Notes: generated by a model from the letters alone, not told the origin. DNA of 64,000 nt from Bacillota bacterium (GCA_049323895.1 JBMOKT010000017.1:19041-83040); one strand, 5' to 3'. Numbered from the stretch's first letter, positions 9,175 through 63,430 are shown. A program made the numbers and translations.

Positions 9175-9195
9175 GACACCATAAATAAATACGAC

Positions 9196-20917: not shown

Positions 20918-21694
20918 TTATACACCTTTAAAGTCAGGTTTTCTTTTATCCAAGAAAGCCGCCATTCCTTCCTTTTGTTCCTCCAAGGAGAAACATAAGC
21001 CAAAAATCTCCGCCTCATGATTATAAGCCGAAACATCATCCATGTTTAAGCCATTGTTAATTGCCGATTTGGCCAGCTTTACCGCCCAGGGTCCACGGCT
21101 CATTATTTTTTCTGCCATTTTCCTAGCCTCGTCCATCAATTGCTCCGGTTCAAAAATCTTATTAACCAAACCAATACGGTAAGCCTCTTGGGCATCAACC
21201 ATATCCCCCGTTACTATCATTTCCTTGGCAATTCCCTTGCCTACCAATCTGGGAAGCCGTTGTGTACCTCCGAAACCGGGAATTACTCCAAGATTTACCT
21301 CTGGCTGTGCGAATTTAGCCTTTGTAGAAGCAAGTCTAACATCACAGGCTAAGGCCAACTCACATCCCCCACCCAGGGCAAAGCCGTTTACCGCCGCAAT
21401 AACAATTTGCGGCAGGCTTTCAAGCTCTAGGAAAACCCTTTGTCCTAGTCGGCCAAATTCCCGCCCCTCAACTGAGTTTTTATCCCTCATTTCCGAAATA
21501 TCAGCACCTGCCACAAAAGCCTTTTCTCCTGCCCCGGTAACAATGACAACCCTTACCTCTTTGTTTTCAGAAAGCTGACCTACTACCTCCCTTAACTCAT
21601 TTAAAGTTTGACTGTTCAAAGCATTTAAAGCCTTAGGACGGTTTATAACTATTTCTGCAATACTTCCGTTAATCCTAAAAAGTATATTTTCCAT
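20918..21694 (-). CDS. Enoyl-CoA hydratase (crotonase family)
   Basis: Contains AFVAGADI and AAVNGFALGGGCELALACD. Confidence 0.9.
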   Translation of the reverse strand: MENILFRINGSIAEIVINRPKALNALNSQTLNELREVVGQLSENKEVRVVIVTGAGEKAFVAGADISEMRDKNSVEGREFGRLGQRVFLELESLPQIVIAAVNGFALGGGCELALACDVRLASTKAKFAQPEVNLGVIPGFGGTQRLPRLVGKGIAKEMIVTGDMVDAQEAYRIGLVNKIFEPEQLMDEARKMAEKIMSRGPWAVKLAKSAINNGLNMDDVSAYNHEAEIFGLCFSLEEQKEGMAAFLDKRKPDFKGV

Positions 21695-21779
21695 AACAAT
21701 CCTCCTGAATGTTTTATGATTTTATCTTAACAATTAATTGGTAAGCAGAAAAGCCTGTTTTTATACAGGCTTTTTTCCT

Positions 21780-22514
21780 TTATTGATTATTCAGCTTTTC
21801 TTGTAAAATTCCTCTAATTACCGAAAATTCCATACCATTTTCTACACAAAAATCCCTGACAGTCATCAAATTACCGGGAACCTTCTTTCCTATAATACCT
21901 TCTATTTCCTCCAAGGTCATACCCCATTCCAGCAGTTCTCCAAAGGTGGTTTTTCCTTTTATTGTTTTTTCCGGTTCCGTTACCTTTTCCCCCTCATCTG
22001 AATTAGATCGAACCAAAGCTTCAGGTGCTGCTTCTAAGATATGATCGCGCAAATAAGCAAGCTGCTCCCTGGTAATTTTACCTTTGTTTTCCAATATTTC
22101 CAGCGCAGGTTTAAGCAAAAAAACTTCTTCATCTAAACTATATGGCAGACCGTTATAAAATGCAGTAAACATCCGTACTGATCCAGTTCCAATTTCCTGT
22201 CCCGCAGCTTTTAGGTATTCATACATGCTTTCCAGCTCCTTTACCTGCATCACCTTAACCTTGTCAATATCAAGTAAATGGAAAGCCCGGGCAATATCCT
22301 CAAGGGGAATGCCAAATAAGCGGCTTACTTCATCAAAGGTATATGACCCTCTTATATCCGCAGGATTATAATTCCCGGCAAATTCCCCCTCTTTATAGCT
22401 AGCAGGAATTTTCGAAGATGTAGTAATCCATAAATCCAAAGCTTTGCTTACACCAATTCCACTAAACATCAATACAAATATAATTAGCCCCATTGCCCAC
22501 GGTTTTATTTTCAT
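21780..22514 (-). CDS. Hypothetical membrane-anchored/exported protein, translationally coupled to the upstream 4Fe-4S protein gene
   Basis: It has an N-terminal TM/signal segment and its start overlaps the upstream stop (ATGA). I recognise no family. A terminator hairpin AAAAGCCTGT-tttta-ACAGGCTTTT follows. Confidence 0.6.
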   Translation of the reverse strand: MKIKPWAMGLIIFVLMFSGIGVSKALDLWITTSSKIPASYKEGEFAGNYNPADIRGSYTFDEVSRLFGIPLEDIARAFHLLDIDKVKVMQVKELESMYEYLKAAGQEIGTGSVRMFTAFYNGLPYSLDEEVFLLKPALEILENKGKITREQLAYLRDHILEAAPEALVRSNSDEGEKVTEPEKTIKGKTTFGELLEWGMTLEEIEGIIGKKVPGNLMTVRDFCVENGMEFSVIRGILQEKLNNQ

Positions 22515-23344
22515 ATGCTTAAACCTCCTTTAGCAGTAAGTTCAACAGTATCAACTATGGGGCAGCTTTCATGGGAGGTACATCTCATACAACTAATACA
22601 CTGGTGGTTTCTAACAACTTCCTTTTGGGCTACGGTAATATTCATGGGGCATGTCCTGTTACAACTATTACAGTTAATGCACGTTGAAGCCTCCCGTCTA
22701 ATTTTAAAGACTCTAAAAAGGTTGGTTATACCTAATACTGCTCCATAGGGGCAGACATATTTACACCAGGGTCTTTCTACAAATAAGGAAAACCCTATTG
22801 TTAATCCTAGGATTACCAAGGCTGTGACAGCAACCTCACTAGTCCAGAAATTAAAGAGGGCAAAATATGGGTCATATTCCTGAAACAGCAGTTTTCCCGT
22901 TGAGCCAATTGCATATAAAACCCAGACAAGAATGAGGTAGCGGGTATGTCTCAGGTAATTATCAATTTTTTGAGGCATAAAATTATTGTACTTTTTGCCA
23001 AAAATCCTCCTCCCTATTTTGCCAAACCATTCTTGTACAGACCCCAGAGGGCAGATCCAACTGCAAAAAACGGGACCAAACAAAACAGCCAAAAGGAAAA
23101 CAATTATCATTAAGATAAAAGCAGATTGATGGATTTTCTGCACAAAAGTACCTACTGTTGCAAACTGATAGATAGAAACAACTCCGCCAAAGGGACACAA
23201 CCCGTGTAATGATGCAGAGGATAAAAAGGCTAAACCTTTGCTTCCTGCCTCAATTGCATACTTGTTAATGGATGTTAATAAAATAAGAAGAAAAAAGAAT
23301 AGCTGAACCATAAAACGGGGACTTGTTTTTGTATTTTTGCTCAT
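22511..23344 (-). CDS. Polytopic 4Fe-4S-binding membrane protein (NapH/MauN-like)
   Basis: It has CPFGG and CPLG motifs in TM loops, and a C-terminal CINCNSCNRTCP...CISCMRCTSHESCP. Confidence 0.8.
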   Translation of the reverse strand: MSKNTKTSPRFMVQLFFFLLILLTSINKYAIEAGSKGLAFLSSASLHGLCPFGGVVSIYQFATVGTFVQKIHQSAFILMIIVFLLAVLFGPVFCSWICPLGSVQEWFGKIGRRIFGKKYNNFMPQKIDNYLRHTRYLILVWVLYAIGSTGKLLFQEYDPYFALFNFWTSEVAVTALVILGLTIGFSLFVERPWCKYVCPYGAVLGITNLFRVFKIRREASTCINCNSCNRTCPMNITVAQKEVVRNHQCISCMRCTSHESCPIVDTVELTAKGGLSI

Positions 23345-23540
23345 TTAAATCAACCTTTCCTGAAATTAATAACTTTAGTATTATGTTAATAAATTTTTTT
23401 CAGGAAATTATTTGATAAATATTAAGATATTATTAAGAATAAGACGCCCTTAAAGGCGTCTCTGTCTTTAACTCATCTATTCATCTTTTCGCTAACTCGT
23501 CATTTAGTCAGTTCGTCATCTCTTCTTTTTCTGAGAAAGG

Positions 23541-23921
23541 TTAAATATATTTTTCCAATGAGGCTCCCAGCCATACGGCAAATAGTCCAATAATAACGCT
23601 AACTCCTATATATATTAAGGCAGTTTTTAGATTGTTTGACTTAATGAGATTCAGGATTTCCAGGCTAAAAGTTGAGAATGTAGTAAATGCACCCAGAAAA
23701 CCTATAGTAATGAATACTCTAAGATAATCGTGTAAAACATTCCTCTCCAGTGTGTAGGAATAAAAAAAGCCTAATAAAAAACAGCCTGTAATGTTAACAA
23801 CTAATGTTCCATAAGGGAAAAAATGCTGGAATCTATTAGTTACCCATCCGGAGACCAGATAACGGCTTAAGGCACCTAAAGCTCCCCCCAAGCCAATAAA
23901 TAAAATATTTAAATGTCCCAA
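23541..23921 (-). CDS. crcB: Fluoride ion channel CrcB/FluC
   Basis: Contains GGALGALSRY, GTLVVNITGCFLLG and GFLGAFTTFSTFS. Confidence 0.9.
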   Translation of the reverse strand: MGHLNILFIGLGGALGALSRYLVSGWVTNRFQHFFPYGTLVVNITGCFLLGFFYSYTLERNVLHDYLRVFITIGFLGAFTTFSTFSLEILNLIKSNNLKTALIYIGVSVIIGLFAVWLGASLEKYI

Positions 23922-23954
23922 TTCCCCCCACCCCTTTCAGTTATTAATATTAAA

Positions 23955-24350
23955 TTAAACAAGTCTAAAATATTTCTTGAGTTTTTCAACCAGCGGAATA
24001 TCTGCAGGGGCAAAAGAATATTTATTTAAATCCTGTACAGGAATAAACTTAATCTCTTTATGAACATGGGGCGTTAGCTGTCCCCCTTCCAGTACAGTCC
24101 AATAAGCAAGAAGCCTGACGGAGGCATGACTGTAATGGTAAATACTTTCCGCAAAGAAATTACCTACACTTACCTCCACATTAAACTCTTCCTTCATCTC
24201 CCGCACCAAGCATTGCTGGGGTGTTTCCCCTTCTTCAACTTTTCCGCCGGGGAATTCCCATAGGTTGGCTAAAAAATCTTCATCATCCCTCTTGGCAATC
24301 AGTATTAAATTATCCTTGATTAATATGGCTGCCGAAACATCAATCATCAA
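23955..24350 (-). CDS. Nudix hydrolase (MutT-like nucleoside triphosphate pyrophosphohydrolase)
   Basis: Nudix box GGKVEEGETPQQCLVREMKEEFNV. Confidence 0.85.
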   Translation of the reverse strand: MMIDVSAAILIKDNLILIAKRDDEDFLANLWEFPGGKVEEGETPQQCLVREMKEEFNVEVSVGNFFAESIYHYSHASVRLLAYWTVLEGGQLTPHVHKEIKFIPVQDLNKYSFAPADIPLVEKLKKYFRLV

Positions 24351-24433
24351 AAATATCCCCTATTTTTACTTTTTAGTATGATACCCTTTAATAATACTTT
24401 TAACCTTTATCCTTAATTTTTAACCGCCATACC

Positions 24434-24458
24434 AAAAACGGCCCCATGGGCCGTTTTA
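24434..24458 (-). terminator. Intrinsic terminator after ftsZ
   Basis: Minus strand reads AAAACGGCCC-atg-GGGCCGTTTTTGG. Confidence 0.85.
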
Positions 24459-24470
24459 CCTTTTATTTCC

Positions 24471-25508
24471 TTATCTTCTTCTGAGAAATTCAGGTATTGT
24501 CCAATCCTCAGCCTGATAATTCTTAAGGGTTATTTTTTCTTCAGGCTTGGGCGGATTTTGGTCAAAACCAGTTGCTATAACGGTTACCCTTATCTCGTCT
24601 TCTAATTTTTCATCTATAACTGCCCCAAAGATAATATTTGCCTCAGGGTCAGCAGCTTCAGCAATAATCTCCGCAGCTTCATTGACTTCAAACAGACCCA
24701 AACCTGAACCGCCCGTGATATTTAGGAGCACTCCCTTGGCCCCTTCAATTGAAGTTTCTAAGAGGGGAGAAGAAATAGCATTACGGGCAGCAGTAACAGC
24801 CCTGTTTTCGCCGGCAGCAGTGCCAATACCCATCAAAGCTGAACCGGTATTATGCATTATGGTTTTAACATCGGCAAAATCAAGGTTAATCAAACCAGGA
24901 ACGGCAATCAAATCAGAAATACCCTGTACCCCTTGCCTTAAAACATCATCTGCAATACGGAAAGCTTCATTGATCGAAGTATTTTTGTCGACTACTTGTA
25001 ATAAACGGTCATTAGGAATAGTAATCAAGGTGTCGACCTTTTCTTTTAAGCTGCCTATTCCGGTAAGCGCCTGCTGGGAACGTTTTCTGCCTTCAAAGGT
25101 AAATGGCTTAGTTACTACACCTACGGTTAATGCGCCCACCTCTTTGGCCACAGCCGCCACTACCGGTGCAGCTCCAGTGCCTGTCCCACCGCCCATACCG
25201 GCGGTAACAAAAACCATATCGGCACCTTTCAGTGCTTTTATTAGTTCATCGCGGCTTTCTTCAGCAGCATTTTTCCCTATTTCTGGATTAGCTCCAGCAC
25301 CAAGACCTCTTGTTAATTTTGTTCCAATCTGTATCTTCACTTCCGCTTGGGAAAGATATAAAGCTTGAGCATCAGTATTAATTGCAATAAATTCTACACC
25401 TTTTAGACCGGCTGCAATCATTCGGTTTACAGCGTTGCTTCCTCCGCCACCTACACCAATAACCTTTATCTGAGCAAATTGGTGAATATCCACATCAAAT
25501 TCCAGCAT
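24471..25508 (-). CDS. ftsZ: Cell division GTPase FtsZ
   Basis: MLEFDVD...[17 protein letters not shown] and [11 protein letters not shown]. The start was chosen at MLEF (25508) by analogy with FtsZ N-termini. The track ORF begins 12 nt earlier, at 25520. Confidence 0.95.
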
Positions 25509-25624
25509 GAAGCCATACAACCCCTTTCATCCTACTCTGCAATAATCATATATAATAACAAATACTACAAATCACTTACCATAAATTCCACATGATGAAT
25601 AAAATTCCCTTTTTTAAAAACCAA

Positions 25625-26413
25625 TTATTTTTTGCTTTTTATTACAGGCGGACCATTAAAACGAAGGTCAATATACTCAATGCTTTCGCTATCAACTCCC
25701 CTTTTTTGGAAATCGCCAAGGATTTCCCGCAAATTAGTCATTTTTTCTTTAATATTCTCAAAAGAACCTATTCTAATTTCTACTCCGGTTTCAGTATAAG
25801 CCAGTATATGTTTTTCATTGGCAATATTAATTTCCACCAGGTTGTGTAATAGTTCAGGCTCACTTTCATCTATGATACTGAGAGCCATTGTTAGAGCCTG
25901 ATTCTTAATTAGCTGCCCCGGACCAGGTATTTGTTCTAAACCGATTCCACTAATGACAGGCAGGGAATATTCTCCGATATCATTTACCAGTGTTAGAAAA
26001 TGACCTTCTGCACTAACCTGGATAAAACCGTCTGGAGACACCAAAAGACATACAGGCTTTCGTTCCTCAATAATAATTTCTAAGGTATTGGGAAGTTTGC
26101 GTTTAATATTTACTTCTTTTATTAAAGGATGGACAGATACCCTTTCTACTACTGCATCTCCGTTAATTTTCATTAAGTTTTGACCTGGTTTTAGCTGGCT
26201 TAAGGTTAATATCTTTTCTGTCTCTAATGAACTATTGCCTACGACAGTAATTTTTTTCAAAGCAAAAAAGGGTGAATGTATGAAAAAGTATAAACCCACT
26301 GCCAATAGTAATAAATAAATGACAGGGGTCGGTATTTTAACATTCTTTTTATTGTTTTTCTTCCTTCTCCTCTGATAATCATCCAGATAGGATACATCCA
26401 TTATAAATTTCAC
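25625..26413 (-). CDS. ftsQ: Cell division protein FtsQ/DivIB (POTRA domain)
   Basis: It has a basic N-terminus, a single TM segment, then KKITVVGNSSL, the start of a POTRA domain. It occupies the ftsQ position between murA and ftsZ. Confidence 0.8.
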   Translation of the reverse strand: MKFIMDVSYLDDYQRRRKKNNKKNVKIPTPVIYLLLLAVGLYFFIHSPFFALKKITVVGNSSLETEKILTLSQLKPGQNLMKINGDAVVERVSVHPLIKEVNIKRKLPNTLEIIIEERKPVCLLVSPDGFIQVSAEGHFLTLVNDIGEYSLPVISGIGLEQIPGPGQLIKNQALTMALSIIDESEPELLHNLVEINIANEKHILAYTETGVEIRIGSFENIKEKMTNLREILGDFQKRGVDSESIEYIDLRFNGPPVIKSKK

Positions 26414-26429
26414 CTATTTCGGCCAGAAA

Positions 26430-26480
26430 TTAGAAAACACGGCTTGTGCCGAGCCTTTGGCGAGTTCTCATAAATATAAA
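26430..26480 (+). repeat. Copy 2 of the TTAGAAAACACGGCTTGCGCC element
   Basis: TTAGAAAACACGGCTTGTGCCGAGCCTTTGGCGAGTTCTCATAAATAT. Confidence 0.75.
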
Positions 26481-26574
26481 AAATCCCTCGCCACTAATTA
26501 TAGCAAGCAGGCTATAAGTTGTCCAAGGTTTTCCTTTTCGAAAACGCAAACCAGGTTTGCGCTCCCAAATAAAT

Positions 26575-27864
26575 TTATTTTTCCAACCCACGCTGGGTGG
26601 TTTCAGTCACTCTAATAATCTTAGCCCCTAATCCTCGTAACTTTTGCTCAAAATTTTCATATCCTCGGTCAATATGATAGATGGAATCAATAATAGTTGC
26701 ATCTTCAGCAATTAAGCCGGCCAGGACTAACGCAGCACCTGCTCTGAGGTCTGTAGCATTTACAAAGGTTCCGCTTAAGGCGTTCTTATCCTTGCCCTTA
26801 ATGATGGCAATCCTTCCTTCCACTTTGATATCCGCTCCCATTCTACGCAGCTCATCTACATGTTTATATCTATTTTCAAAAATGTTTTCACTAATGACGC
26901 TGGTCCCTTTTACTGAGGCTAATAGTGCCATAATTTGTGGCTGCATATCTGTCGGAAATCCAGGATACGGCATAGTTTTTATATCAGCCGGTTTTATGTT
27001 ATCACTACCCACTACTTTGAGCGCACCATCCTCATCAAAAATATGCACTCCCATTTCTTTTAGCTTGGAAACAATGGCTTCCACATGTCTAGTATGAACA
27101 TTCTCAATTTTTATTGTACTTTTTGTAATTGCCGCAGCAACCATAAAGGTTCCGGCCTCAATCCGGTCGGGGATGACAGTATGTTCAGCAGGCACAAGTT
27201 GTTCAACACCTTGTATTGTTATTACATCTGTTCCTGCTCCTGATATTTGCGCCCCCATATTATTTAAAAACCGTTCCAAATCAACAATTTCTGGTTCTTT
27301 AGCTGCATTGGAAATCACCGTTTTACCCTTAGCCATGGTAGCCGCCATCATAATGTTCTCAGTAGCCCCTACACTAGGGAAATCCAGACATATTTCAGTC
27401 CCTCTTAATACTCCGCCTTCTGCTATGGCCTCAATAAAACCAAATTTTTCCTCAATCTTTGCACCCATAGCCTGTAAACCTTTAAGGTGAAGATCCATAG
27501 GACGGGAACCAATGGCACAGCCTCCCGGGAAGCTTAGTTTAGCAAACCCAAACTTAGCGAGGAGGGGACCCATTACCAGATTTGATGCCCGCATTTTACG
27601 CATTAAAAAGTCCGAAATTTCTATGGAATTTACTTTTGAACTGTCAATTTTCATAGTTGAGCCAGACCAGTCCACCGTACACCCCAAAAACTCTAAAACC
27701 TCTTTCATTACATGAACATCCCGTAGTCTGGGAACATCATAAATTACTGAGGTTTTTGGCGATAGTAGTGAAGCAGCCAGAATGGGTAAAACAGCATTTT
27801 TTGCACCGCTAATTCTTACGGAACCAGCAAGAGGATTTCCGCCCATAATAATATACTTTTCCAT
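26575..27864 (-). CDS. murA: UDP-N-acetylglucosamine 1-carboxyvinyltransferase
   Basis: Contains ISGAKNAVLPILAASLL and the active-site region PGGCAIGSRPMDLH. Confidence 0.95.
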   Translation of the reverse strand: MEKYIIMGGNPLAGSVRISGAKNAVLPILAASLLSPKTSVIYDVPRLRDVHVMKEVLEFLGCTVDWSGSTMKIDSSKVNSIEISDFLMRKMRASNLVMGPLLAKFGFAKLSFPGGCAIGSRPMDLHLKGLQAMGAKIEEKFGFIEAIAEGGVLRGTEICLDFPSVGATENIMMAATMAKGKTVISNAAKEPEIVDLERFLNNMGAQISGAGTDVITIQGVEQLVPAEHTVIPDRIEAGTFMVAAAITKSTIKIENVHTRHVEAIVSKLKEMGVHIFDEDGALKVVGSDNIKPADIKTMPYPGFPTDMQPQIMALLASVKGTSVISENIFENRYKHVDELRRMGADIKVEGRIAIIKGKDKNALSGTFVNATDLRAGAALVLAGLIAEDATIIDSIYHIDRGYENFEQKLRGLGAKIIRVTETTQRGLEK

Positions 27865-28772
27865 TAATATCCCCCCAAAACAAGTATCTCTGGTTCTAGT
27901 AAAATGTTATACTGATTCTTTACTTGGTATTGAATTTTTTCAATTAAATTTAATACATCGCAGCTGGAAGCACCACCTAAATTTATAATAAAATTAGCAT
28001 GTTTTTCCGATACCTGTGCCCTGCCAATCTGCCAGCCCTTAGCCCCAATAGATTCTATTAGGCGTCCTGCAGAATCTCCGGGAGGATTTTTGAAAACACT
28101 CCCAGCGTTAGGATATTCCCAAGGCTGCCCTGCTTTACGACGATTCAAATTATTAGCCATAATGCTTTTTATTTCCGAAACATCACCACTTTTCAATTTT
28201 AGGTGTATTTCAACAACAATTCCTTTAAAATGCTGCAGCTTACTTGACCGGTAGGAAAATTGTAAATCTTCTTTATTAAAATGCATTGTTTGCCCTGACA
28301 AATCCATAACAGTAACACCTTCTACAATATCACTGATGCTGCCGCTAAAAGCACCGGCATTCATTACTACTGCTCCACCAACGGTTCCGGGAATGCCTGA
28401 GGCAAATTCCAAACCCCTCAATCCCCTGTCTGCCGCCTGGCGAGCCAGATAAGGAAGTTTAACACCTCCTTGGACTGTTACCTCTGCACCATTAAATTTC
28501 AGTTTCCTTAAACCGCACAGGCTTATAACTAAACCTCTTATCCCTTCATCTTTAATTAATAAATTGGAACCACCACCGATAATTGTAACCGGCAGGTTAT
28601 GTTTTGAAGAGAAATTAAGAGCTTTTTCCAAATCGATTATATCTAGGGGAGTAAAGAATAAATCAGCCGGCCCCCCTATCTGCCATGTGGTATGCCGGCT
28701 CATGGACTCGGAAATTTTCACATCACCTTCAACAACGCTCCGAAGTAAAGTTGCTAAACTTGGAAAATCCAT
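27864..28772 (-). CDS. murB: UDP-N-acetylenolpyruvoylglucosamine reductase
   Basis: It has an FAD-binding domain (IIGGGSNLL) and GSVFKNP. Its TAA stop overlaps the murA ATG (TAATG). Confidence 0.92.
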   Translation of the reverse strand: MDFPSLATLLRSVVEGDVKISESMSRHTTWQIGGPADLFFTPLDIIDLEKALNFSSKHNLPVTIIGGGSNLLIKDEGIRGLVISLCGLRKLKFNGAEVTVQGGVKLPYLARQAADRGLRGLEFASGIPGTVGGAVVMNAGAFSGSISDIVEGVTVMDLSGQTMHFNKEDLQFSYRSSKLQHFKGIVVEIHLKLKSGDVSEIKSIMANNLNRRKAGQPWEYPNAGSVFKNPPGDSAGRLIESIGAKGWQIGRAQVSEKHANFIINLGGASSCDVLNLIEKIQYQVKNQYNILLEPEILVLGGY

Positions 28773-28785
28773 TTTTCATCCTCCA

Positions 28786-30186
28786 CTAAACAGATGCTAA
28801 GGTTTCCCGTTTTGCTAAAACATCTGCCAAATCAGCGCCAACCTTCCATATGTTCCCTGCCCCTAAGGTTAGAATTAAATCACCTGACCTTGCTACCTCA
28901 GCTAAATAATTTTCCAGTGATTCCCTATTTTTAAAATAATTTAAATCTGTATGGGGGGGTATATGGTCTGCTATTAATTGGGTTGATACACCTGAAATAG
29001 GTTTTTCACCCGCTGAGTAAACCTCATCTAAAATCAGTTTGTCGGCTAAATCAAAGCTTTTTGCAAATTCCTTTGCTAAAAATTGGGTCCTTGTAAACCT
29101 ATGGGGTTGAAAAACAGCAATAATCCTGCCGGAATGACTACTCCTGGCTGCTTGGAGAGTTGCTTTAATTTCTGTTGGGTGATGGGCATAATCATCAACT
29201 ATTAAAATATCATTAATGTTTGCTATTATTTGGAAACGCCTTTGTACTCCACGGAAGTTAGAAAGTGCCTGGTTTATCTTTTCAAAGCTGATGCCAAATT
29301 CAAGACCAACGGCAACGGCAGCTAATGCGTTACTTATATTATGCTTTCCAGGCACATTTAGTTCCAATTGGCCTATAAATTTATCACCATAGAATATATC
29401 CGCCATACTTGTTAAACCGTTGTATATAATATTTTTCGCTGTATAGTCAGCATCTTCAGCTAAGCCATAAGTTATCAATTTTCCAGGAATATGGTCAGCA
29501 AGTTGCCTGACATAAAAATTATCGTTGCAAAGGACTGAAAATCCTTGAGGACTTCCAAGATCAACAAATTCATTAAATGCTTTTATTATATTCTCCAGGG
29601 AACCGTAATAATCCAAATGGTCATCTTCGATGTTTGTTATTACTGTAGACCATGGTTTAAGCTTGAGGAAGGAACCATCACTTTCGTCGGCTTCAGCAAC
29701 CAGATACTCACCTCTCCCTAACTTTGCATTTCCGCCGATATCATTTAGTTCTCCTCCTACAACTACCGTAGGATCAAATTCATTCTTTTCCAAAACCAAG
29801 GCAATCATTGAAGTTGTTGTGGTTTTTCCATGGGCTCCGGCAATACAAATCCCTTTCTGCCGCTCCATCAGCTGACTAAGCATCTCGGCCCTTTGTAAAA
29901 TAGGAATATTTAATTCCTTTGCCCGCTGAACCTCCTGGTTTTCTTCAGGGATTGCTGTGGAGACCACTACCTTATCCACTCCCTGCTGAATATTTATTGC
30001 CTTGTGCCCGGCATAGACAATCGCACCATTTTCTTCCAGTCTTTTTGTTGTTTCTGATACATTCAAATCTGACCCAGAAACCCTATAGCCTAAATCTAAT
30101 AAAACCTTGGCAATGCCACTCATTCCGGCACCACCAATTCCTACAAAATGTATCCATTCTTTTTTTGCTTTAGTCAAAACTTTCAA
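28786..30186 (-). CDS. murC: UDP-N-acetylmuramate--L-alanine ligase
   Basis: Contains HFVGIGGAGMSGIA, GAHGKTTTTSMI and DDYAHHP. Confidence 0.95.
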   Translation of the reverse strand: MKVLTKAKKEWIHFVGIGGAGMSGIAKVLLDLGYRVSGSDLNVSETTKRLEENGAIVYAGHKAINIQQGVDKVVVSTAIPEENQEVQRAKELNIPILQRAEMLSQLMERQKGICIAGAHGKTTTTSMIALVLEKNEFDPTVVVGGELNDIGGNAKLGRGEYLVAEADESDGSFLKLKPWSTVITNIEDDHLDYYGSLENIIKAFNEFVDLGSPQGFSVLCNDNFYVRQLADHIPGKLITYGLAEDADYTAKNIIYNGLTSMADIFYGDKFIGQLELNVPGKHNISNALAAVAVGLEFGISFEKINQALSNFRGVQRRFQIIANINDILIVDDYAHHPTEIKATLQAARSSHSGRIIAVFQPHRFTRTQFLAKEFAKSFDLADKLILDEVYSAGEKPISGVSTQLIADHIPPHTDLNYFKNRESLENYLAEVARSGDLILTLGAGNIWKVGADLADVLAKRETLASV

Positions 30187-30303
30187 CTCCTTCCAGCCAT
30201 TCTAGCACAACGCAAATATAAAGGCGGAGTATATTCTTTACTTTATATGCAGCATCATGAAAAGATGTTACAACTGCTCCCTTTAGAAGATAATCCTGGT
30301 GAC

Positions 30304-30332
30304 TATTATTGGCTTATGTATAGTATTGTCAA
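30304..30332 (-). promoter_or_regulatory. Candidate sigma-A promoter for murC, downstream of the repeat array
   Basis: The coding strand reads TTGACA-17 nt-ATAATA. Confidence 0.45.
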
Positions 30333-30447
30333 AAAAAAATTGTTCTACATAATGATAAAAAAAAATAAATAGGAACATTAGCAGGCCTGTCCATGCTTTC
30401 TTTAGAGCAAAACTCTTGAGACAGACATGCCAAGCAGCTGTCCTTTT

Positions 30448-30905
30448 GGGTCTGACAATACTAATAATGCGATACTTGGGGTCTGTCTTGGTCAGTTTAT
30501 TGCGTCTGATATACTTCTCGGTCAATTTATTGCGTCCGATATACTTGAGGGTCTAGCTGTTGCGTCTGACATGAACTTTTTGGTCAGTCTATTTCGTCTG
30601 ACATACTTAAGGGTTTAGCTGTTGCGTCTGACACAAGCATTGCATGTTAATCCAAAAGTAGTCAGACTAACAATCTTACTCTGAAGTATATCAGACTAAA
30701 AATGTCCACCCAGAAGCAATTGTCAGACTAGCAATGTTTACCCATTAGAATATCAGACTAACAATGTCACCCAAAAGTATATCAGACCAGTAATCTTCAC
30801 CTAAAAGCAAATCAGACTAGCAATGTTGACTATGAAGAATTGTCAGACGCTCAATCTTCACCCAGAAGTTTATCTGGCAAGCAATCTTCACCCTGAAGTA
30901 AGATC
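30448..30905. repeat. Head-to-head array of about 15 degenerate 28-33-bp units (locus 1)
   Basis: About 6 units of type GGTCAnTTTATTGCGTCTGATATACTT occupy 30448-30638. The centre (30639-30653) contains AAGCATTGCATG. About 8.5 units of type AAGTATATCAGACTAaCAATcTTCACCC occupy 30654-30905. Confidence 0.9.
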
Positions 30906-32000
30906 TTGAAGAACCTTCATTATTTTCTCCAAAGAATCGGGATTTCCTGCTTTTTTCATGTTTACAGACATTTCCTTAAGTTTGTTGGAATCATTAATTA
31001 GCCCTGCAATGGTATTATATAGATTATCCCTATTCAGGTCTTTTTCTAAAATCATGGCTGCACCTTTACTTGCAACTAGTGATCGGGCATTAAATTCTTG
31101 GTGGTTTTCGGCAGCAAAAGGATAAGGAATTAAAATTCCTGGAAGCCCCAGAGAAGTAATTTCTGCAATGAATGTGGCCCCTGCCCTGCCCACACATAAA
31201 TCAGCAGCATTTAGAGCATATTCCATTTCATATATGTATGGCTTAAGAATAATTTTTCCGTATTTTTCCAAATTTATACCCATTGTTGTCAATTTTTCTA
31301 CAATTTGAGTATACCCTTCCTCCCCGGTAGTATGGATCAACTGCAAATTAGGTATGGTTAAAAGTTGAGGATAAATTTCAACCATGGCATTATTGATGCT
31401 TTTTGCTCCCCTGCTGCCCCCGCTGACTAAAAGGGTAAATTTATCTTCCTGGAGACCAAAATATTGGCTAGCTTCTTTTTTGCCAATGTTAAAAATTTCC
31501 TCCCGAACAGGCAAACCTGTTAATATTGTTTTGTTAGGATTGGGGAAATATTTCTGCGAATCGGGAAAAGTTATCATTATTTTATTTACAATACGGGCTA
31601 AGGTTTTATTAGTAAGTCCCGGCAGAGCATTTTGTTCGTGAATAACGGCAGGAATTTGCAAAAGGGATGCAGCTAAAACTACAGGTCCGCACACATATCC
31701 CCCGGTTCCCATCACTACCTGGGGACGGAATTTCCTAATGATATTAAAGGCCTGGGTTCCACCCTGGACTGCTTTTAAACCAGCCCGAGCAGCCTGCCAG
31801 GAAAACTTTCTCTGCCATCCTTCAACTTCAATGGTTGCAAAAGCAATACCTGCCTCAGGTACTATTTTTGACTCTAAACCTCTTTTAGTCCCAACATAAA
31901 GAACTTCTGCCTGCGGATAATTATTTAAGATATGTTTGGCTACAGCCAGGGCAGGATATACATGCCCCCCGGTTCCCCCGCCTGTAAAAAGGATTCTCAT
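30888..32000 (-). CDS. murG: Undecaprenyldiphospho-muramoylpentapeptide beta-N-acetylglucosaminyltransferase
   Basis: Contains TGGGTGGHVYPALAVA and GGSRGA. Confidence 0.95.
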   Translation of the reverse strand: MRILFTGGGTGGHVYPALAVAKHILNNYPQAEVLYVGTKRGLESKIVPEAGIAFATIEVEGWQRKFSWQAARAGLKAVQGGTQAFNIIRKFRPQVVMGTGGYVCGPVVLAASLLQIPAVIHEQNALPGLTNKTLARIVNKIMITFPDSQKYFPNPNKTILTGLPVREEIFNIGKKEASQYFGLQEDKFTLLVSGGSRGAKSINNAMVEIYPQLLTIPNLQLIHTTGEEGYTQIVEKLTTMGINLEKYGKIILKPYIYEMEYALNAADLCVGRAGATFIAEITSLGLPGILIPYPFAAENHQEFNARSLVASKGAAMILEKDLNRDNLYNTIAGLINDSNKLKEMSVNMKKAGNPDSLEKIMKVLQDLTSG

Positions 32001-32088
32001 AAAAAAACCACCATCCCCAAATAGCTTTACGCCTTTTTGCTTTATGTTTAACTTTGGATAAACACAAAAACCAAAAGGCGTAACGAGA

Positions 32089-33186
32089 TTATTTATTGCA
32101 ATACCTGGAAATATTTAGAAGTATTCCCACGCCTACTAAAGAAAGTGTCAATGATGAACCCCCGTAGCTGACAAAAGGAAGGGTTATACCCGTTACTGGA
32201 AGGCTGCCAGTAACTACACCCATATTAATTACCGACTGAACTGCAACGATACTCGTAAGACCAACGGCTACCAGTGAGGCAAAGCGGTCAGGAGCATATA
32301 AGGCAATCCGATAACCCCTCCAGATAAACAAGAAAAACAGGAGAATTACTAAAAGAATTCCGATAAAACCTAACTCTTCACCAATAATCGCAAAAATAAA
32401 GTCAGTATGCCTTTCTGGCAGATAGAGGAATTTTTGCCGACTGTTCCCTAACCCGATGCCAAACAGCCAGCCTGAACCAAGTGCATATAAAGACTGTACA
32501 GTTTGGTAACCTTCATTGCTAGCCGTTTCAAAAGGTTTGAGGTATCCTACAATCCTTTTTAAGCGGTAAGGTTCCTGAATAATAAGAGCTACTACCCCCA
32601 TTATACCCGTTAAGGCCAAACCAAACAGGTGGGTAAACCGTGACCCGGCAGCAAGAAACATACAAAAAGCTGTACCGGCAACGGCAATGGTAGTACCTAA
32701 GTCAGGCTGCTTTAGTAAAAGGGCAGCTACTATTCCCAAAATCCCTAATAAATATAGAAATCCTTTAAAGTTCTTTATTTTTTCGGGTTCTAAACTCATA
32801 ATTCTGGCAAAGAAAAAAACTATGGCCAGTTTTACTATCTCTGAAGGTGCTAAATTAAGAGGACCCAGTACAATCCATCTGCTGGAGCCGTTTACATTTT
32901 TACCTATCCCGGGAATTAAGACCATCACCAAGAGAATAAGCGTTATAACAAATCCTGTTACAATCAGCCTTCTGGTTTTATAATAATCAAAGTTCATAAA
33001 GAAAAACATGGCAGCTATGCCTAGACCGGCCCACATCATTTGCCTTTTTAAAAAATGGTATGGGTCATCATAAAATAACATGGCATGATAAGAACTGGCA
33101 CTTAAAACCATAATCACACCAATGCTCAATAAGAGGAAGGTTGTTAAGAATAGAACGATATCGGGCTGCTTTCTTTTAAAGCTCAC
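32089..33186 (-). CDS. ftsW: SEDS-family peptidoglycan glycosyltransferase FtsW/SpoVE
   Basis: It has 10 TM segments and contains QPDLGT, SNEGYQ and PFVSYGGSS. Confidence 0.9.
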   Translation of the reverse strand: MSFKRKQPDIVLFLTTFLLLSIGVIMVLSASSYHAMLFYDDPYHFLKRQMMWAGLGIAAMFFFMNFDYYKTRRLIVTGFVITLILLVMVLIPGIGKNVNGSSRWIVLGPLNLAPSEIVKLAIVFFFARIMSLEPEKIKNFKGFLYLLGILGIVAALLLKQPDLGTTIAVAGTAFCMFLAAGSRFTHLFGLALTGIMGVVALIIQEPYRLKRIVGYLKPFETASNEGYQTVQSLYALGSGWLFGIGLGNSRQKFLYLPERHTDFIFAIIGEELGFIGILLVILLFFLFIWRGYRIALYAPDRFASLVAVGLTSIVAVQSVINMGVVTGSLPVTGITLPFVSYGGSSLTLSLVGVGILLNISRYCNK

Positions 33187-33190
33187 CCAC

Positions 33191-34549
33191 TCACCCCCTT
33201 AACTGGAAAACCAGTTCCTTAAATACATCGCCCCGATGCTCAAAATTATTGAACATATCATAACTGGAACAGGCAGGAGATAAGAGAACCAAATCCCCTT
33301 TTTGTGCAAAATGGTAAGCAGTCTGAACAGCATCTGCAAAGCTTTCTGCTAAATAAATATTTTTAAAGCCCTCATCCGCCATCGCTTTTTTCAATTCTGC
33401 CGCAGCTTCCCCAACCAAAATTACCTGTTTTACACTTTCTTTGATTTTAGCCGCTAATTCCCGAAAATCACTACCCTTGTTTTTACCGCCGGCTATTAAA
33501 ATTATGGGGTCATTATAAGCTTCCAAAGCTTTAATACTAGCATCGGGATTGGTCCCCTTGGAATCATTGACAAACTTGACTCCATTTATTTCCGCAACTA
33601 ATTCCAAACGATGGGGTACTCCGGGAAAATTAATCAAAGAGGTACTGATTTCTTCTGGTTCAAGCCCTAATAAATAACCGGCTGCCACTGCCGCCATAGC
33701 ATTTTCCAGATTATGGTTTCCTTTGATGCTCACCTGGTCACGGCTGCAAATAACAACGGGTCCTTCTCCAATATCAATTACTATCTGATTATCTGCTAAA
33801 TATACCCCTTCTTCTAACTTATTCCGCCTAGAAAAAAATATCACATGACTTTTAGCTCCGTGAGCTAATTCTTTAACTAAAGGATCGTCAAAATTAAGAA
33901 TAAGAAAATCTTCTTCAGTCTGATTCTTAAAAATCCTTGCTTTGACTGCCCGGTAATTATCCATAGTACCGTGCCTGTCTAAATGGTCAGGAGTTAAATT
34001 AAGGAATACTGCCACCCTGGGTTTGAATTTATCAATGGTTTCCAATTGAAAACTGCTGACCTCTGCAACTATCAGGTCCTTAGCAGTAATATCTTCTACA
34101 TAGTTTATGAGGGGCAATCCAATATTCCCCCCAATTATCACCTTTTTTTGAGCATCTTTAAAAATCTGTCCTATTAGGGCTGTTGTAGTAGTTTTCCCAT
34201 TAGTTCCTGTTACAGCAATAAAAGGAGCTGAAGAATATCTGTAAGCCAGTTCAATTTCACCAATGACAGGAATGCCTTTTATATTTGCTTCAACCAAGGG
34301 TCTAATATTTATTGGAATGCCGGGACTGACAATAATTAAATCGGGTAATAATTGGTTAATTTCCGGCTGTACTCCCCACAAGGTTTGAATACCCAAAGAT
34401 GTAATTTCCTGCTCTACCTGCTTCATAGCCGATGGCTCTTTTATATCAGTTAAGGTGACTTTGGCACCTTTATTTGCTAAAAATTTACTTGCGGCAATGC
34501 CGCTGCGCGCAGCACCCATTATTAATACCTTTTTTCCGGCTGCTTCCAT
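33191..34549 (-). CDS. murD: UDP-N-acetylmuramoylalanine--D-glutamate ligase
   Basis: Contains GAARSGIAASKFL, VTGTNGKTTTTALI and DSKGTNP. Confidence 0.95.
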   Translation of the reverse strand: MEAAGKKVLIMGAARSGIAASKFLANKGAKVTLTDIKEPSAMKQVEQEITSLGIQTLWGVQPEINQLLPDLIIVSPGIPINIRPLVEANIKGIPVIGEIELAYRYSSAPFIAVTGTNGKTTTTALIGQIFKDAQKKVIIGGNIGLPLINYVEDITAKDLIVAEVSSFQLETIDKFKPRVAVFLNLTPDHLDRHGTMDNYRAVKARIFKNQTEEDFLILNFDDPLVKELAHGAKSHVIFFSRRNKLEEGVYLADNQIVIDIGEGPVVICSRDQVSIKGNHNLENAMAAVAAGYLLGLEPEEISTSLINFPGVPHRLELVAEINGVKFVNDSKGTNPDASIKALEAYNDPIILIAGGKNKGSDFRELAAKIKESVKQVILVGEAAAELKKAMADEGFKNIYLAESFADAVQTAYHFAQKGDLVLLSPACSSYDMFNNFEHRGDVFKELVFQLRG

Positions 34550-34568
34550 GGCTACACACTCCTTCTTA

Positions 34569-34642
34569 AGTGGCTAGTTGTTAGTGGCTAGTGGCTAGAA
34601 AAATAAGTGACTGGTGCACTAGTTTGATAGTTTGATAGTTGG
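34569..34642 (+). repeat. Copy C of the GTGGCTAG/GTGACTGG element
   Basis: AGTGGCTAGTTGTTAGTGGCTAGTGGCTAGAAAAATAAGTGACTGGTGCACTAGTTTGATAGTTTGATAG. Confidence 0.8.
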
Positions 34643-34800
34643 CATCTGCTTCTGGGTGAAAATTGTTAGTCCGATTACCTTTAGGAGTAGCTTGCAATGC
34701 TTGTGTCAGACGCAATAAATTGACCAAGAAGTATTCAGACTAAAAAGCTAGACCCTTAAGTACATCAGACCCAACAGCTAAACCCTTAAGTATAATTATA
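34643..34800. repeat. Short head-to-head array of the ~30-bp unit family (locus 2)
   Basis: One unit CTGGGTGAAAATTGTTAGTCCGATTACC is followed by the centre GCTTGCAATGCTT, which is the reverse complement of the locus-1 centre. Three to four opposite units follow: GTGTCAGACGCAATAAATTGACC, AAGTATTCAGACTAAAAAGCTAGACCC, TTAAGTACATCAGACCCAACAGCTAAACCC. Confidence 0.85.
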
Positions 34801-63069: not shown

Positions 63070-63430
63070 TAAGGAATTCATTCTATGTCAGTTATATCTA
63101 AAAGGATTCATTTTTGGTCAGTTTCTTGCTCACGGGATTCATTGTTGATTAGTTAGTTCTAGTGGGATTCATGCTTTGTCAGTTATTTCTTAAGGGATTC
63201 ATTTTGAGTCAGTTATATCTGTGTGATTCATTGTTTGTAAGTTACTTCTATTGTAATCTTCGATTGTCAGTTAAAAACTGACTAACAATGTTCACCTAGA
63301 AGCATCAACTGACTAACAATCTCAACCCTTAAGCATTGTCTGACTAGCAATCTACACCCATTAGCCTTATCTGACTAGCAATCTTCACCCAAAAGCATTA
63401 TCTGACCTACAATGTTTACCCATTAGCCTT
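63070..63430. repeat. Head-to-head array of about 12 units of the ~30-bp family (locus 3)
   Basis: About 7 units of type GGGATTCATTTTGAGTCAGTTATATCT occupy 63070-63262. The centre is ATTGTCAGTT-AAAA-ACTGACTAACAAT. About 5.5 opposite units of type TTAAGCATTGTCTGACTAGCAATCTTCACCC run to 63430. Confidence 0.9.

What the first reader, a model, noticed from the sequence alone, without database searches (positions are those of the whole stretch)
30448..30905. Roughly 460-bp head-to-head array of degenerate 30-bp units splitting murG from murC inside the dcw operon
A 700-bp non-coding gap sits in an otherwise tightly packed dcw cluster. It holds about 6 units of GGTCAnTTTATTGCGTCTGATATACTT (30448-30638). 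A short centre with AAGCATTGCATG follows, then about 8.5 units of the opposite orientation, AAGTATATCAGACTA(A/G)CAAT(C/G)TTCACCC (30654-30905).

Units are 28-33 bp, about three helical turns, and abut without unique spacers. They keep a core ATCAGAC/GTCTGAT. The two arms are complementary only in 9-13-bp blocks, so RNA or extruded DNA would form a long segmented hairpin.

murC has its own TTGACA-17-ATAATA promoter just downstream, which suggests the array partitions the operon. I do not recognise this architecture as a described repeat class. It is not CRISPR (no spacers, no cas genes). It is larger and differently organised than REP/BIME. There are no terminal inverted repeats with target duplications and no transposase.

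Alternative readings are an mRNA processing, termination or stabiliser element, a helically phased protein-binding array, or a selfish expanding repeat.
Basis: seen in the sequence. Interest (0 to 1): 0.7.

Follow-up and report, generated by a model that had tools for sequence, protein, structure and literature searches.

The report
Two-armed 30-bp intergenic repeat family
The murG-murC gap holds one copy of a previously undescribed, fast-changing family of non-coding repeats (two opposed arms of ~30-bp units around a small conserved core) that fills gene-to-gene spacers in a group of uncultured Peptococcaceae-like bacteria. It most likely behaves as selfish or neutral DNA, not as a device that splits the cell-wall operon.

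Summary
Window 30443-30905 holds about 6 reverse and 8 forward units of 29-33 bp, facing each other across a 28-bp core. The motif matches 10 times in the window against 0.01 expected by chance.

It is not a one-off. Two more elements with the same layout lie at 34640-34800 (mraY-murD) and 63071-63427. Related arrays occur in other Peptococcaceae-like MAGs and metagenome contigs.

Units share TCAGACGC...ACCC..AAGTA. In most arrays the two arms carry different unit variants. One side of the core reads ATGCTTGTG|TCAGACGC.

Arrays fill spacers, mostly between co-directional genes, in either orientation. In all three window copies the upstream gene's stop codon lies inside the outermost unit.

Eight relatives lack the murG-murC array, yet all keep a 290-530-bp gap with a conserved block upstream of murC. 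The operon break is therefore ancestral.

Close relatives (roughly 90% nucleotide identity by eye in coding DNA) differ at all four sites compared. Single units do not fold. Arm-to-arm pairing shows no sign of selection.

There were no hits in Rfam, phages, plasmids or viral contigs, and only one chance hit in GTDB representative genomes.

Best reading: a new variant of bacterial interspersed intergenic repeats, with arms that grow and shrink by slippage. How it spreads is unknown.

The parts
30443..30633 (.). Arm 1 ('A-type' units, reverse-oriented on the + strand). Five clear units have TCAGAC ends at 30509, 30539, 30569, 30601 and 30631. One or two degenerate outer units lie at 30443-30482. 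Unit variants are TCAGACGCAATAAATTGACC.. and TCAGACGCAACAGCTAGACCC..AAGTA.
   Evidence: TRF period 30; unit HMM hits; layout printed
30634..30661 (.). Core between the arms (CAAGCATTGCATGTTAATCCAAAAGTAG). With the last bases of arm 1 it reads CACAAGCATTGCATGTTAAT. That string is identical in a metagenome element (L015), and its GCTTGTG|TCAGACGC part recurs in most two-armed copies compared.
30662..30905 (.). Arm 2 ('B-type' units, forward on the + strand). Eight units of TCAGACTAGCAATCTTCACCCAAAAGTATA type start at 30662, 30691, 30723, 30753, 30782, 30812, 30843 and 30873. The last unit overlaps the 3' end of murG.
30888..32000 (-). murG. Its TGA stop (30888-30890) is the complement of TCA inside CTTCACCC of the outermost unit. 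The C-terminus reads ..DLTSG*, where the relative L006 has ..DLSF*.
   Evidence: NCBIfam TIGR01133, 1.8e-93; C-terminal alignment
28786..30186 (-). murC, 262 nt downstream of the array
   Evidence: NCBIfam TIGR01082, 1e-163
30305..30332 (-). Sigma-70-like promoter match TTGACA-16-AATAAT (11 of 12), between the array and murC. Specific to this window.
   Evidence: not aligned to a conserved block in relatives
30187..30275 (-). Ancestral murC upstream block (..GTAACA..GCATATAAAGTAAAGA..CCGCC..AGAATGGCTGGAAGGAGTTGAA), conserved in all the relatives fetched, none of which carries the array
   Evidence: no Rfam match
34640..34800 (.). Second element of the family, between mraY and murD, in the opposite orientation. 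It has one B unit (reverse), the core ..GCTTGCAATGCTTGTG, then three A units. The mraY stop TAA (34786-34788) lies inside the last unit.
   Evidence: the relative L006 has a large array at the same junction
63071..63427 (.). Third element, between a RecD2-like helicase gene and a LysE-family gene. It has about 6 reverse units of a third variant (GGGATTCATTnTTTGTCAGTTATTTCT) facing 5 forward B-like units (CTGACTAGCAATCTTCACCCAAAAGCATTAT). The helicase stop TAA (63416-63418) lies inside the last unit.

Best explanation
The array is one copy of a lineage-specific, high-density family of non-coding interspersed repeats. I describe it as a palindrome-organised minisatellite.

The ancestral module is a roughly 70-90-bp imperfect palindrome: one unit, a short conserved core, and an inverted unit of a different variant. 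Copies sit in gene-to-gene spacers. They usually start within the last codons of the upstream gene, so the outermost unit supplies the stop codon.

Each arm then grows and shrinks on its own by slipped-strand mispairing or unequal recombination. This produces higher-order blocks of 2-3 units and unequal arm lengths.

The element is probably transcribed with its flanking genes, and the RNA can fold into a long bulged hairpin. I regard that hairpin as a by-product of the inverted layout, not a selected structure.

At murG-murC the element colonised a spacer that already existed and already carried murC's own conserved upstream block. Its effect on the dcw genes is probably small: at most some REP-like stabilisation or processing of RNA 3' ends.

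Shown: family membership, architecture, position rules, absence from orthologous sites, and turnover between relatives. Inferred: the slippage mechanism, co-transcription, and selfish or neutral status. Unknown: what disperses the module.
For: Family and architecture:
- There are three elements in 64 kb with the same layout.
- The same layout appears in L006 and in 9 loci of JGI metagenome Ga0209643. Related units also appear in BICA1-8 (L031) and in ENA bioreactor contigs (L016, L022).
- In every two-armed copy the TCAGAC ends face the core.
- The motif ATGCTTGTG|TCAGACGC recurs, exactly or with one or two changes, at most cores compared. L015 and the murG-murC copy share CACAAGCATTGCATGTTAAT.

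Arms are differentiated, not mirror images:
- Mean unit identity is 0.70-0.77 at separations of 1-3 units within an arm.
- It is 0.67 between loci.
- It is only 0.62 between the two arms of one array.

Arm-specific tandem duplication:
- Higher-order periods of 62 and 91-95 bp appear in single arms, at up to 93-100% identity in L006 and L021.
- Arm unit counts are unequal.

Position rules:
- In most copies the outer unit lies within about 20 nt of the upstream gene's end, and it often overlaps that end.
- In many copies the inner edge stops 5-50 nt before the next start codon.
- Most copies lie between co-directional genes, in both orientations.
- The stop codon lies inside the terminal unit in all 3 window copies (sequence).

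Not locus-specific:
- The array is absent from murG-murC in 8 relatives that keep the gap and the conserved murC upstream block.
- L013 and L031 are roughly 90% identical by eye in coding DNA. They differ at three TCAGAC sites, one of them a clean 121-bp, 4-unit indel.
- The tktN-tktC spacer has four different contents in four relatives.

No selection for the hairpin:
- In-register partner units are no more alike than out-of-register pairs (0.629 against 0.623).
- Mismatches are not enriched for G-U-compatible changes (35 compatible, 47 incompatible).

Not coding for anything recognised:
- Unit spacing varies from 29 to 33 bp.
- There is no Rfam match.
Against: - Ten unit positions are at least 95% invariant across genomes whose MurG proteins are only about 70% identical. 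Drift alone would not preserve that. Some sequence-specific agent must act on the units, such as a mobilising enzyme, a binding protein or frequent gene conversion, and I did not identify it. Those percentages are inflated because the units were selected with an HMM.
- Slippage cannot write a unit over the last codons of a gene. The stop-codon overlap therefore implies real insertion or conversion events, whose mechanism is unknown.
- The ~31-bp period equals three helical turns, and the conserved patches recur about once per turn. That would suit a protein-binding array.
- No transcript data exist, so co-transcription is inferred only from the short distance to downstream start codons.
- All genomes involved are MAGs or metagenome contigs. 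Array lengths could be mis-assembled; L006 contains N gaps inside its array.
Confidence: 0.55

Rival explanations
1. The array is a protein-binding platform. Each ~31-bp unit (three helical turns) would be a site for a lineage-specific DNA-binding protein that loads at the core and spreads outwards in both directions. The arrays would then act as nucleoid-organising, roadblock or titration sites.
For: - The period is tightly 29-33 bp.
- Conserved patches TCAGACGC, A12/T15-T16 and ACCC..AAGTA recur about every 10 bp.
- They are conserved across genomes with about 70% MurG identity.
- Single units have no structure of their own, so any recognition would act on duplex sequence.
- The two arms always face the core.
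Against: - Copies are gained and lost between close relatives at all four sites compared, and they are replaced by unrelated repeats.
- Unit numbers range from 1 to 11 per arm, with no preferred number.
- No candidate protein gene is linked to any copy. The flanking genes looked at are ordinary housekeeping or transport genes.
- Binding cannot be tested with these tools.
Confidence: 0.2
2. The array is a non-autonomous derivative of an unknown transposon whose ends carry multiple transposase-binding sites. Comparable multi-site ends are known in Tn7, Mu, IS21 and the IR/DR ends of Tc1-like elements. The two arms would be the left and right ends with the interior deleted, mobilised in trans.
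For: - The asymmetry of two different arm variants around a conserved core is kept in different genomes.
- Unit sequence is conserved in a way that implies recognition.
- Terminal units overlap gene 3' ends, which implies insertion events.
Against: - No copy with an internal gene was found in the roughly 40 loci examined.
- There is no target-site duplication at the one exactly delimited indel.
- One-armed arrays and solo units exist (L013 7207-7327; L037).
- Arm-specific higher-order duplications show that much of the growth is local.
- No similarity to plasmids, phages or viral contigs.
- The units' TCAGAC ends point inwards, so the outer termini are the least conserved part of the element.
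Confidence: 0.15
3. The array is a selected RNA element. The long hairpin in the murG-murC transcript would act as an RNase III processing site, a 3'-end stabiliser or an insulator that sets the relative expression of the two halves of the dcw cluster.
For: - The minus-strand RNA folds to -151.6 kcal/mol, z = -5.95.
- A minimal unit-core-unit module folds to -15.7 kcal/mol, z = -4.9.
- The element starts at the stop codon of the upstream gene, as many REP elements do.
- REP and BOX elements are known to act on mRNA (PMC3184786).
Against: - Elements occur in both orientations relative to transcription.
- The arms are unequal, and they are less alike than random unit pairs.
- There is no excess of wobble-compatible mismatches and no in-register preference.
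- No terminator-like site was found.
- The array is absent from the same junction in 8 relatives.
- No Rfam family matches.
Confidence: 0.12
4. The array is an artefact or a degenerate known element, such as a mis-assembled repeat, a decayed CRISPR array, or REP sequences of a RAYT transposase.
For: - The source is a MAG.
- The Logan contig breaks at the neighbouring repeat zone.
- A RayT-like gene lies next to a one-armed array in L013.
Against: - The Logan contig is identical over the whole array.
- The same architecture appears in assemblies from unrelated samples.
- Units abut with no spacers.
- Units do not form hairpins, whereas the GTAGGGGCG..CGTCCGC hairpins around and inside the RayT gene do fold (-8.8 kcal/mol).
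- The RayT ortholog in BICA1-8 has no array beside it.
- No RayT homolog is present in the window.
Confidence: 0.03

Closest known systems
REP / BIME / REPIN elements of Proteobacteria (mobilised by RAYT, a Y1 HUH transposase)
   Same: - Short (20-40 bp) extragenic units at high copy number.
- Located after gene 3' ends inside operons and co-transcribed.
- Inverted arrangement gives hairpins.
- Clusters of variable size.
(PMC2817692, PMC3116915, PMC3333891, listed.)
   Different: - REP units are themselves GC-rich palindromes preceded by GTAG. These units are unstructured.
- In BIMEs the orientation alternates from unit to unit (PMC2817692 abstract). Here units are direct tandem copies, with a single switch of orientation at the core.
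- The RayT gene found in a related genome has its own, different REP-like hairpins.
BOX elements of Streptococcus pneumoniae (boxA-(boxB)n-boxC)
   Same: - Modular, non-autonomous intergenic element.
- An internal module is tandemly repeated a variable number of times.
- The ends are complementary, so the whole element folds.
- It is transcribed with its neighbours.
(PMC3184786; module details from my own knowledge.)
   Different: - BOX has one tandem module between two unique end modules.
- Here both arms are tandem arrays, in opposite orientation, around a unique core.
- The unit is about 30 bp, against 45 bp for boxB.
- The host phylogeny and the sequence are unrelated.
MIRU (mycobacterial interspersed repetitive units) and similar operon-internal minisatellites
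   Same: - Tandem units in spacers within operons.
- Part of polycistronic mRNA.
- Element ends overlap the adjacent genes.
- Absent from homologous sites in related species.
(PMC3184786.)
   Different: - MIRU units are 40-100 bp and all in one orientation.
- They carry small ORFs in frame with their neighbours.
- Here units are 29-33 bp, of variable length, in two opposed arms.
Cyanobacterial STRR heptamers, LTRR and small dispersed repeats (my own knowledge; not verified in the held library)
   Same: - Genomes whose spacers hold many co-existing families of short tandem and dispersed repeats that nest in one another.
- The same kind of heptamers (for example CCAGTCA, CACTAGT) occur in this clade.
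   Different: - A different phylum.
- To my knowledge, no described cyanobacterial family has two opposed arms of 30-bp units around a core.
Multi-site transposon ends (Tn7, Mu, IS21, IR/DR ends of Tc1-like elements) (my own knowledge)
   Same: - Several direct copies of a 20-32-bp recognition site in each end.
- The two ends are inverted relative to each other.
- The left and right ends are not identical.
   Different: - Those ends carry 2-4 sites and flank transposition genes.
- Here there are up to 11 units per arm and nothing between the arms except a 20-30-bp core.
- No target-site duplication was seen.
CRISPR arrays
   Same: Unit length is about 30 bp, in tandem.
   Different: - There are no spacers: start-to-start spacing equals unit length.
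- Units are degenerate.
- There are two opposed arms.
- Copies are dispersed in operon spacers.

Membership tests
REP / REPIN / BIME | Each unit is an imperfect palindrome that folds into a stable stem-loop | tested here: not met
   Four representative units fold at 0 to -0.8 kcal/mol, no better than shuffles. The control hairpin from the RayT locus folds at -8.8 kcal/mol.
REP / REPIN / BIME | Units occur as inverted pairs, or alternate in orientation along a cluster | tested here: not met
   Within an arm all units have the same orientation. There is one switch per element, at the core.
REP / REPIN / BIME | A RAYT (Y1 transposase) gene in the genome, flanked by the cognate repeats | tested here: inconclusive
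   - No RayT homolog is present in the 64-kb window.
- A RayT-like gene in L013 has a one-armed array on one side.
- Its 90%-identical ortholog in L031 has none, and both copies are flanked by different GTAGGGGCG-type hairpins.
- The whole genome was not available.
MITE | Terminal inverted repeats at defined ends, plus a target-site duplication | tested here: not met
   - The arms are inverted as wholes, but the outer units are the most degenerate part.
- The one exactly delimited indel (121 bp, L013 against L031) has no flanking direct repeat.
MITE | Sequence relationship to the ends of an autonomous IS or transposon | tested here: inconclusive
   No similarity to plasmid or phage records. 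No copy with an internal ORF among the loci fetched. No IS database was available.
CRISPR | Repeats separated by unique spacers of similar length | tested here: not met
   Start-to-start spacing of 29-33 bp equals unit length. The sequence was read directly.
CRISPR | Adjacent cas genes | tested here: not met
   The genes flanking the three window copies are murG/murC, mraY/murD and recD2-like/lysE. Not every ORF in the window was scanned.
BOX element | boxA and boxC end modules with boxB repeated between them; sequence similarity to pneumococcal BOX | not tested
   No BOX reference sequence was available in the tools. The architecture differs (two tandem arms instead of one internal tandem module).
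MIRU-like operon minisatellite | Tandem units in one orientation within operon spacers, with ends overlapping the flanking genes | tested here: inconclusive
   Location and overlap with gene ends are met. Single orientation and a 40-100-bp unit are not met.
Iteron array of a replication origin or partition site | Linked rep or par gene, and one or a few loci per replicon | tested here: not met
   There are three copies in 64 kb and many in related contigs. The neighbouring genes looked at are ordinary chromosomal genes, not rep or par genes.
Any Rfam RNA family | Covariance-model match | tested here: not met
   0 matches at gathering threshold over the window. 0 matches at E <= 1 over 30150-30950.

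The most novel reading that the evidence does not exclude
The units are multi-copy recognition sites of an unidentified, lineage-specific machinery: a transposase, a recombinase or a DNA-binding protein that reads the tripartite TCAGACGC / ACCC / AAGTA pattern. That machinery would insert the unit-core-unit module at gene 3' ends.

This would make the family a new class of prokaryotic non-autonomous element. Its defining feature would be two opposed, self-expanding arms of binding sites. It would also help explain why spacers in this clade turn over so fast.
Probability: 0.2. Interest if true: 0.7.

Novelty: new variant of a known kind. Interest (0 to 1): 0.45.

Why it matters
Most of what is known about bacterial interspersed repeats comes from a few cultured groups, through families such as REP/REPIN, BOX, MIRU and Correia.

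This family comes from uncultured subsurface and bioreactor Firmicutes and has a layout I could not find described: two opposed tandem arms of different unit variants around a conserved core. It is dense (about one copy per 20 kb in this window). It reaches into the last codons of essential genes. It is replaced by other repeat families between close relatives.

If a dedicated mobilising or binding factor exists, it would be a new system. If none exists, the family is still a clear natural case of how spacers inside essential operons tolerate large structured inserts. It is also a practical cause of contig breaks in MAGs of this clade.

For the dcw cluster itself the result is deflationary. 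The murG/murC split and the conserved block upstream of murC are older than the array.

Tried and rejected
- CRISPR remnant: rejected, because there are no spacers.
- REP/RAYT: followed up through the weak Y1_Tnp hit next to an array in L013. Rejected as the cognate system, for three reasons: the RayT locus carries its own GTAGGGGCG hairpins, the ortholog lacks the array, and the units do not fold.
- Known RNA family: none found.
- Phage or plasmid origin: no blastn hit in 'distant' mode, and three viral-contig pattern scans were empty.
- GTDB representative genomes: the scan with a B-type two-unit pattern gave one hit, which lies in a cyanobacterial sequence without tandem structure. I judge it to be chance. 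The scan used a pattern specific to this window's variant, so it does not exclude other variants in GTDB genomes.
- Nested self-insertion as the source of the symmetric layout: not supported. Higher-order repeats are arm-specific, and in-register partner units are not special.
- Growth from the core outwards: HMM score shows no gradient with rank from the core.
- Promoter inside the units: a TG-n-TATACT motif occurs in three units of this copy (by eye), but it is not conserved in the family. The scan reports no site in the array.
- Literature: searches by sequence strings and by keywords found no description of such elements. The library holds open-access papers only, so this is weak evidence of novelty.
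- Orthologous comparison of Ga0209643 loci with the window: there are no shared loci, so gains and losses could not be dated in the window's own lineage.

Full report
**The observation**

The region is as described.
- Tandem Repeats Finder gives two period-30 arrays. One is at 30486-30633 (4.9 copies). The other is at 30644-30893 (8.3 copies). They show higher-order periods of 62 and 91 bp.
- A unit HMM resolves 5 clear reverse units, plus 1-2 degenerate outer ones back to about 30443. It resolves 8 forward units starting at 30662 through 30873.
- The consensus matches 10 times in the window, against 0.01 expected.
- The arms are 71-79% complementary in blocks of 22-39 nt. One 14-nt block is perfectly complementary.
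- All flanking genes are on the minus strand: murD, spoVE/ftsW, murG (30888-32000), the 701-bp gap, then murC (28786-30186), murB and murA.
- A Logan assembly contig of run SRR32167787 is identical to window 20888-34595, array included. The structure is therefore not peculiar to one assembler.

**It is a family, not a singleton**

Two more elements lie in the same window.
- One is between mraY and murD (34640-34800).
- The other is between a RecD2-like helicase gene and a LysE-family gene (63071-63427).

A metagenome pattern scan returned 15 loci.
- Nine are from JGI metagenome Ga0209643, on contigs of about 40% GC. They carry arrays of TGTCAGACGCAAAATGTTCACCCAGAAGTAC-type units, several of them clearly two-armed.
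- Two ENA bioreactor contigs carry a related variant.

A Peptococcaceae MAG (L006, GCA_049366715.1) has a large two-armed array at the mraY-murD junction. That is the same junction as the window's second copy. BICA1-8 (L031) has a few units of the family in both orientations.

**Anatomy, from about 95 units**
- The period is 29-33 bp.
- Near-invariant positions are C2, G4, A5, C6, A12, T15, C19, C20, A25 and G26. The skeleton is TCAGACGC-..A..T(T)..ACC(C)..AAGTA. These frequencies are inflated because the units were chosen with an HMM.
- In every two-armed copy the TCAGAC ends face the core.
- By eye, in roughly three quarters of the two-armed copies one arm is dominated by a 'B' variant (CAATnTTCACCC). 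The other arm is dominated by an 'A' variant (CAAGCTAGACC or AATAAATTGACC). L021 and L031 are mixed.
- Units of opposite arms of one array are less alike (0.62) than units from different loci (0.67) or from the same arm (0.70-0.77 at separations of 1-3 units).
- The core is short. It reads GTCTGAT-AAA.. on one side in several copies and ..ATGCTTGTG|TCAGACGC, or a close variant, on the other side in most copies.
- The murG-murC copy and L015 share CACAAGCATTGCATGTTAAT exactly.
- Some cores hold nested repeats of other families (L021, L023, L024).

**Position rules**

Copies fill spacers.
- In most copies the outer unit lies within about 20 nt of the upstream gene's end, and it often overlaps that end.
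- In many copies the inner edge stops 5-50 nt before the next start codon, leaving only the ribosome-binding site.
- Most copies lie between co-directional genes. By my reading about 7 have one orientation relative to transcription and 3 the other.

In all three window copies the upstream gene's stop codon lies inside the terminal unit.
- murG: TGA at 30888-30890, in CTTCACCC.
- mraY: TAA at 34786-34788, in ACCCTTAAGTA.
- The helicase gene: TAA at 63416-63418, in GTTTACCC.

MurG ends ..DLTSG*, where the relative L006 has ..DLSF*.

**The operon split is older than the array**

The source is an NCBI 'Bacillota bacterium' MAG. The nearest MurG proteins are 69-73% identical and come from Peptococcaceae or Clostridia MAGs.

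I fetched eight distinct related genomes with the same order, murD-spoVE-murG-gap-murC-murB-murA-ftsQ-ftsZ. They are L003/L004/L005 (one sequence), L006, L007, L009, L026, L027, L029 and L030.
- None has a 30-bp array between murG and murC.
- All have a 290-530-bp gap.
- All have a conserved block just upstream of murC..GTAACAnAATTT..TTGCATATAAAGTAaAGAAC..CCGCTTTA..AGAATGGCTGGAAGGAGTTGAAG. It is window 30187-30275 on the minus strand.

It is not part of that conserved block.

**Turnover between close relatives**

L013 (Ga0209643) and L031 (BICA1-8) are collinear, mbl-rayT-flgF-flgG. By eye they are roughly 90% identical in coding DNA. They differ at three TCAGAC sites.
- A clean 121-bp, 4-unit indel between rayT and flgF, with no flanking direct repeat.
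- Three units against one degenerate unit between flgF and flgG.
- A two-armed array against unrelated GTAGGGGCG hairpins after flgG.

The tktN-tktC spacer has four different contents in four relatives.
- A 329-bp two-armed array (L017).
- A 21-mer repeat plus heptamers (L034).
- An unrelated 324 bp plus heptamers (L035).
- A solo degenerate unit plus heptamers (L037).

L017 and L037 share the same stop-codon overlap, TCTTAAGGG. This suggests a common terminal unit with later expansion or contraction.

**Structure tests**
- The minus-strand RNA folds as a long bulged hairpin: -151.6 kcal/mol, z = -5.95. The DNA strand gives z = -4.1.
- A minimal unit-core-unit module folds at -15.7 kcal/mol, z = -4.9. 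It pairs exactly at the conserved blocks and leaves the A/B-specific middle as internal loops.
- Single units have no structure, at 0 to -0.8 kcal/mol.
- In-register partner units of the two arms are no more alike than out-of-register pairs (0.629 against 0.623).
- Mismatches are not enriched for changes that would keep G-U pairs in the transcribed strand (35 against 47).
- HMM score shows no gradient from the core outwards.

**The RayT lead**

An ORF 70 bp from a one-armed array in L013 gave a sub-threshold Y1_Tnp hit. Read in full, it is a frameshifted member of a large family that sources name 'REP element-mobilizing transposase RayT'.

Its intact ortholog in BICA1-8 sits at the same place without an array. 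Both copies are flanked by, and contain, GC-rich GTAGGGGCG..CGTCCGC hairpins. Those hairpins look like classical REPs and do fold. The window has no homolog. I therefore do not link RayT to the TCAGAC units.

**Comparison with known elements**
- Nothing matched in Rfam, plasmids, phages or viral contigs.
- The single hit in GTDB representative genomes is in my judgement a chance match.
- Literature searches found no description.
- Functionally the nearest analogues are REP/BIME/REPIN, BOX and MIRU elements (PMC2817692, PMC3116915, PMC3184786).
- The defining features of REP (palindromic unit, alternating orientation), MITE (defined ends, target duplication) and CRISPR (spacers) were tested and not met.

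**Conclusion**

The finding is a genuine copy of an apparently undescribed interspersed repeat family with an unusual two-armed tandem layout.

The best-supported account has three parts. A small palindromic module is dispersed by an unknown agent. The arms then grow and shrink by slippage. The inverted layout gives a hairpin as a by-product.

The strong conservation of unit positions across distant genomes, and the overlap with stop codons, are not explained by slippage alone. They keep open a protein-recognition or transposon-end reading.

The array does not create the murG/murC break.

Noticed in passing
window 677-705, 34569-34598, 41475-41489; L007 2550-2580 and 2867-2898; L009 6978-7052; L029 2432-2466; L031 17-178 and 11654-11718; L034, L035, L037 tkt spacers: Tandem heptamers (AGTGGCT, CACTAGT, CCAGTCA and similar) lie in many spacers of this Firmicute clade, often just upstream of ribosome-binding sites. 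In L007 they form two opposed runs at the two ends of the mraY-murD gap. They resemble cyanobacterial STRR repeats.
   Followed up: partly
window 30187-30275 (minus strand) and the murC upstream regions of L003, L006, L007, L009, L026, L027, L029: A conserved block lies upstream of murC in all the genomes compared: GTAACAnAATTT..TTGCATATAAAGTAaAGAAC..CCGCTTTA..AGAATGGCTGGAAGGAGTTGAAG. It contains a possible TAAAG/CTTTA stem. It may be a promoter, perhaps for an alternative sigma factor, plus a leader. No Rfam family matches.
   Followed up: partly
L013 6460-7137; L031 9800-10486 and 12560-12720; L024 2048-2073: A RayT-family gene sits between mbl and flgF. It is flanked by, and interrupted in frame by, GTAGGGGCGnnCATTGCnCGTCCGC hairpins, which look like a classical REP/RAYT pair. 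The L013 copy lacks an in-frame start (apparent frameshift). None of this occurs in the window.
   Followed up: yes
window about 9085-9175: A near-perfect palindrome with arms of about 30 nt, GGGGGGTGTCAGGGGACGGTTCTCTGTCACG..CGTGACAGAGAACCGTCCCCTGACACCCCC, lies in the spacer 8936-9215. It is a different element from the 30-bp arrays.
   Followed up: no
L013 8095-8410 against L031 11330-11400; window 7078-7107: A hexamer tract (AAGGYT)n is about 300 bp long in one genome and about 60 bp in its close relative. A short complement of the same tract is present in the window.
   Followed up: no
L013 1859-1940; L023 6761-6804; L024 3543-3593; L031 3473-3523, 11382-11431, 15349-15399; L034 about 1000-1040; window about 830-860: A 21-bp tandem or dispersed repeat, AGATTAAGATTCCGCTACGCT, recurs in several genomes of the clade. 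It is sometimes nested in the core of the 30-bp elements.
   Followed up: no
L021 8130-8230; L013 8690-8800; L031 11580-11660: A MITE-like element of about 100 bp with ends TGTCATCGCGAGCG.../...CTTCGCAATGACA. In L021 it is inserted in the core of a two-armed array.
   Followed up: no
L001 (Logan SRR32167787 contig), which ends at window 34595: The Logan contig stops inside the heptamer and array zone upstream of murD. L006 has runs of N inside its array. These repeats break or scaffold-gap short-read assemblies of the clade.
   Followed up: partly
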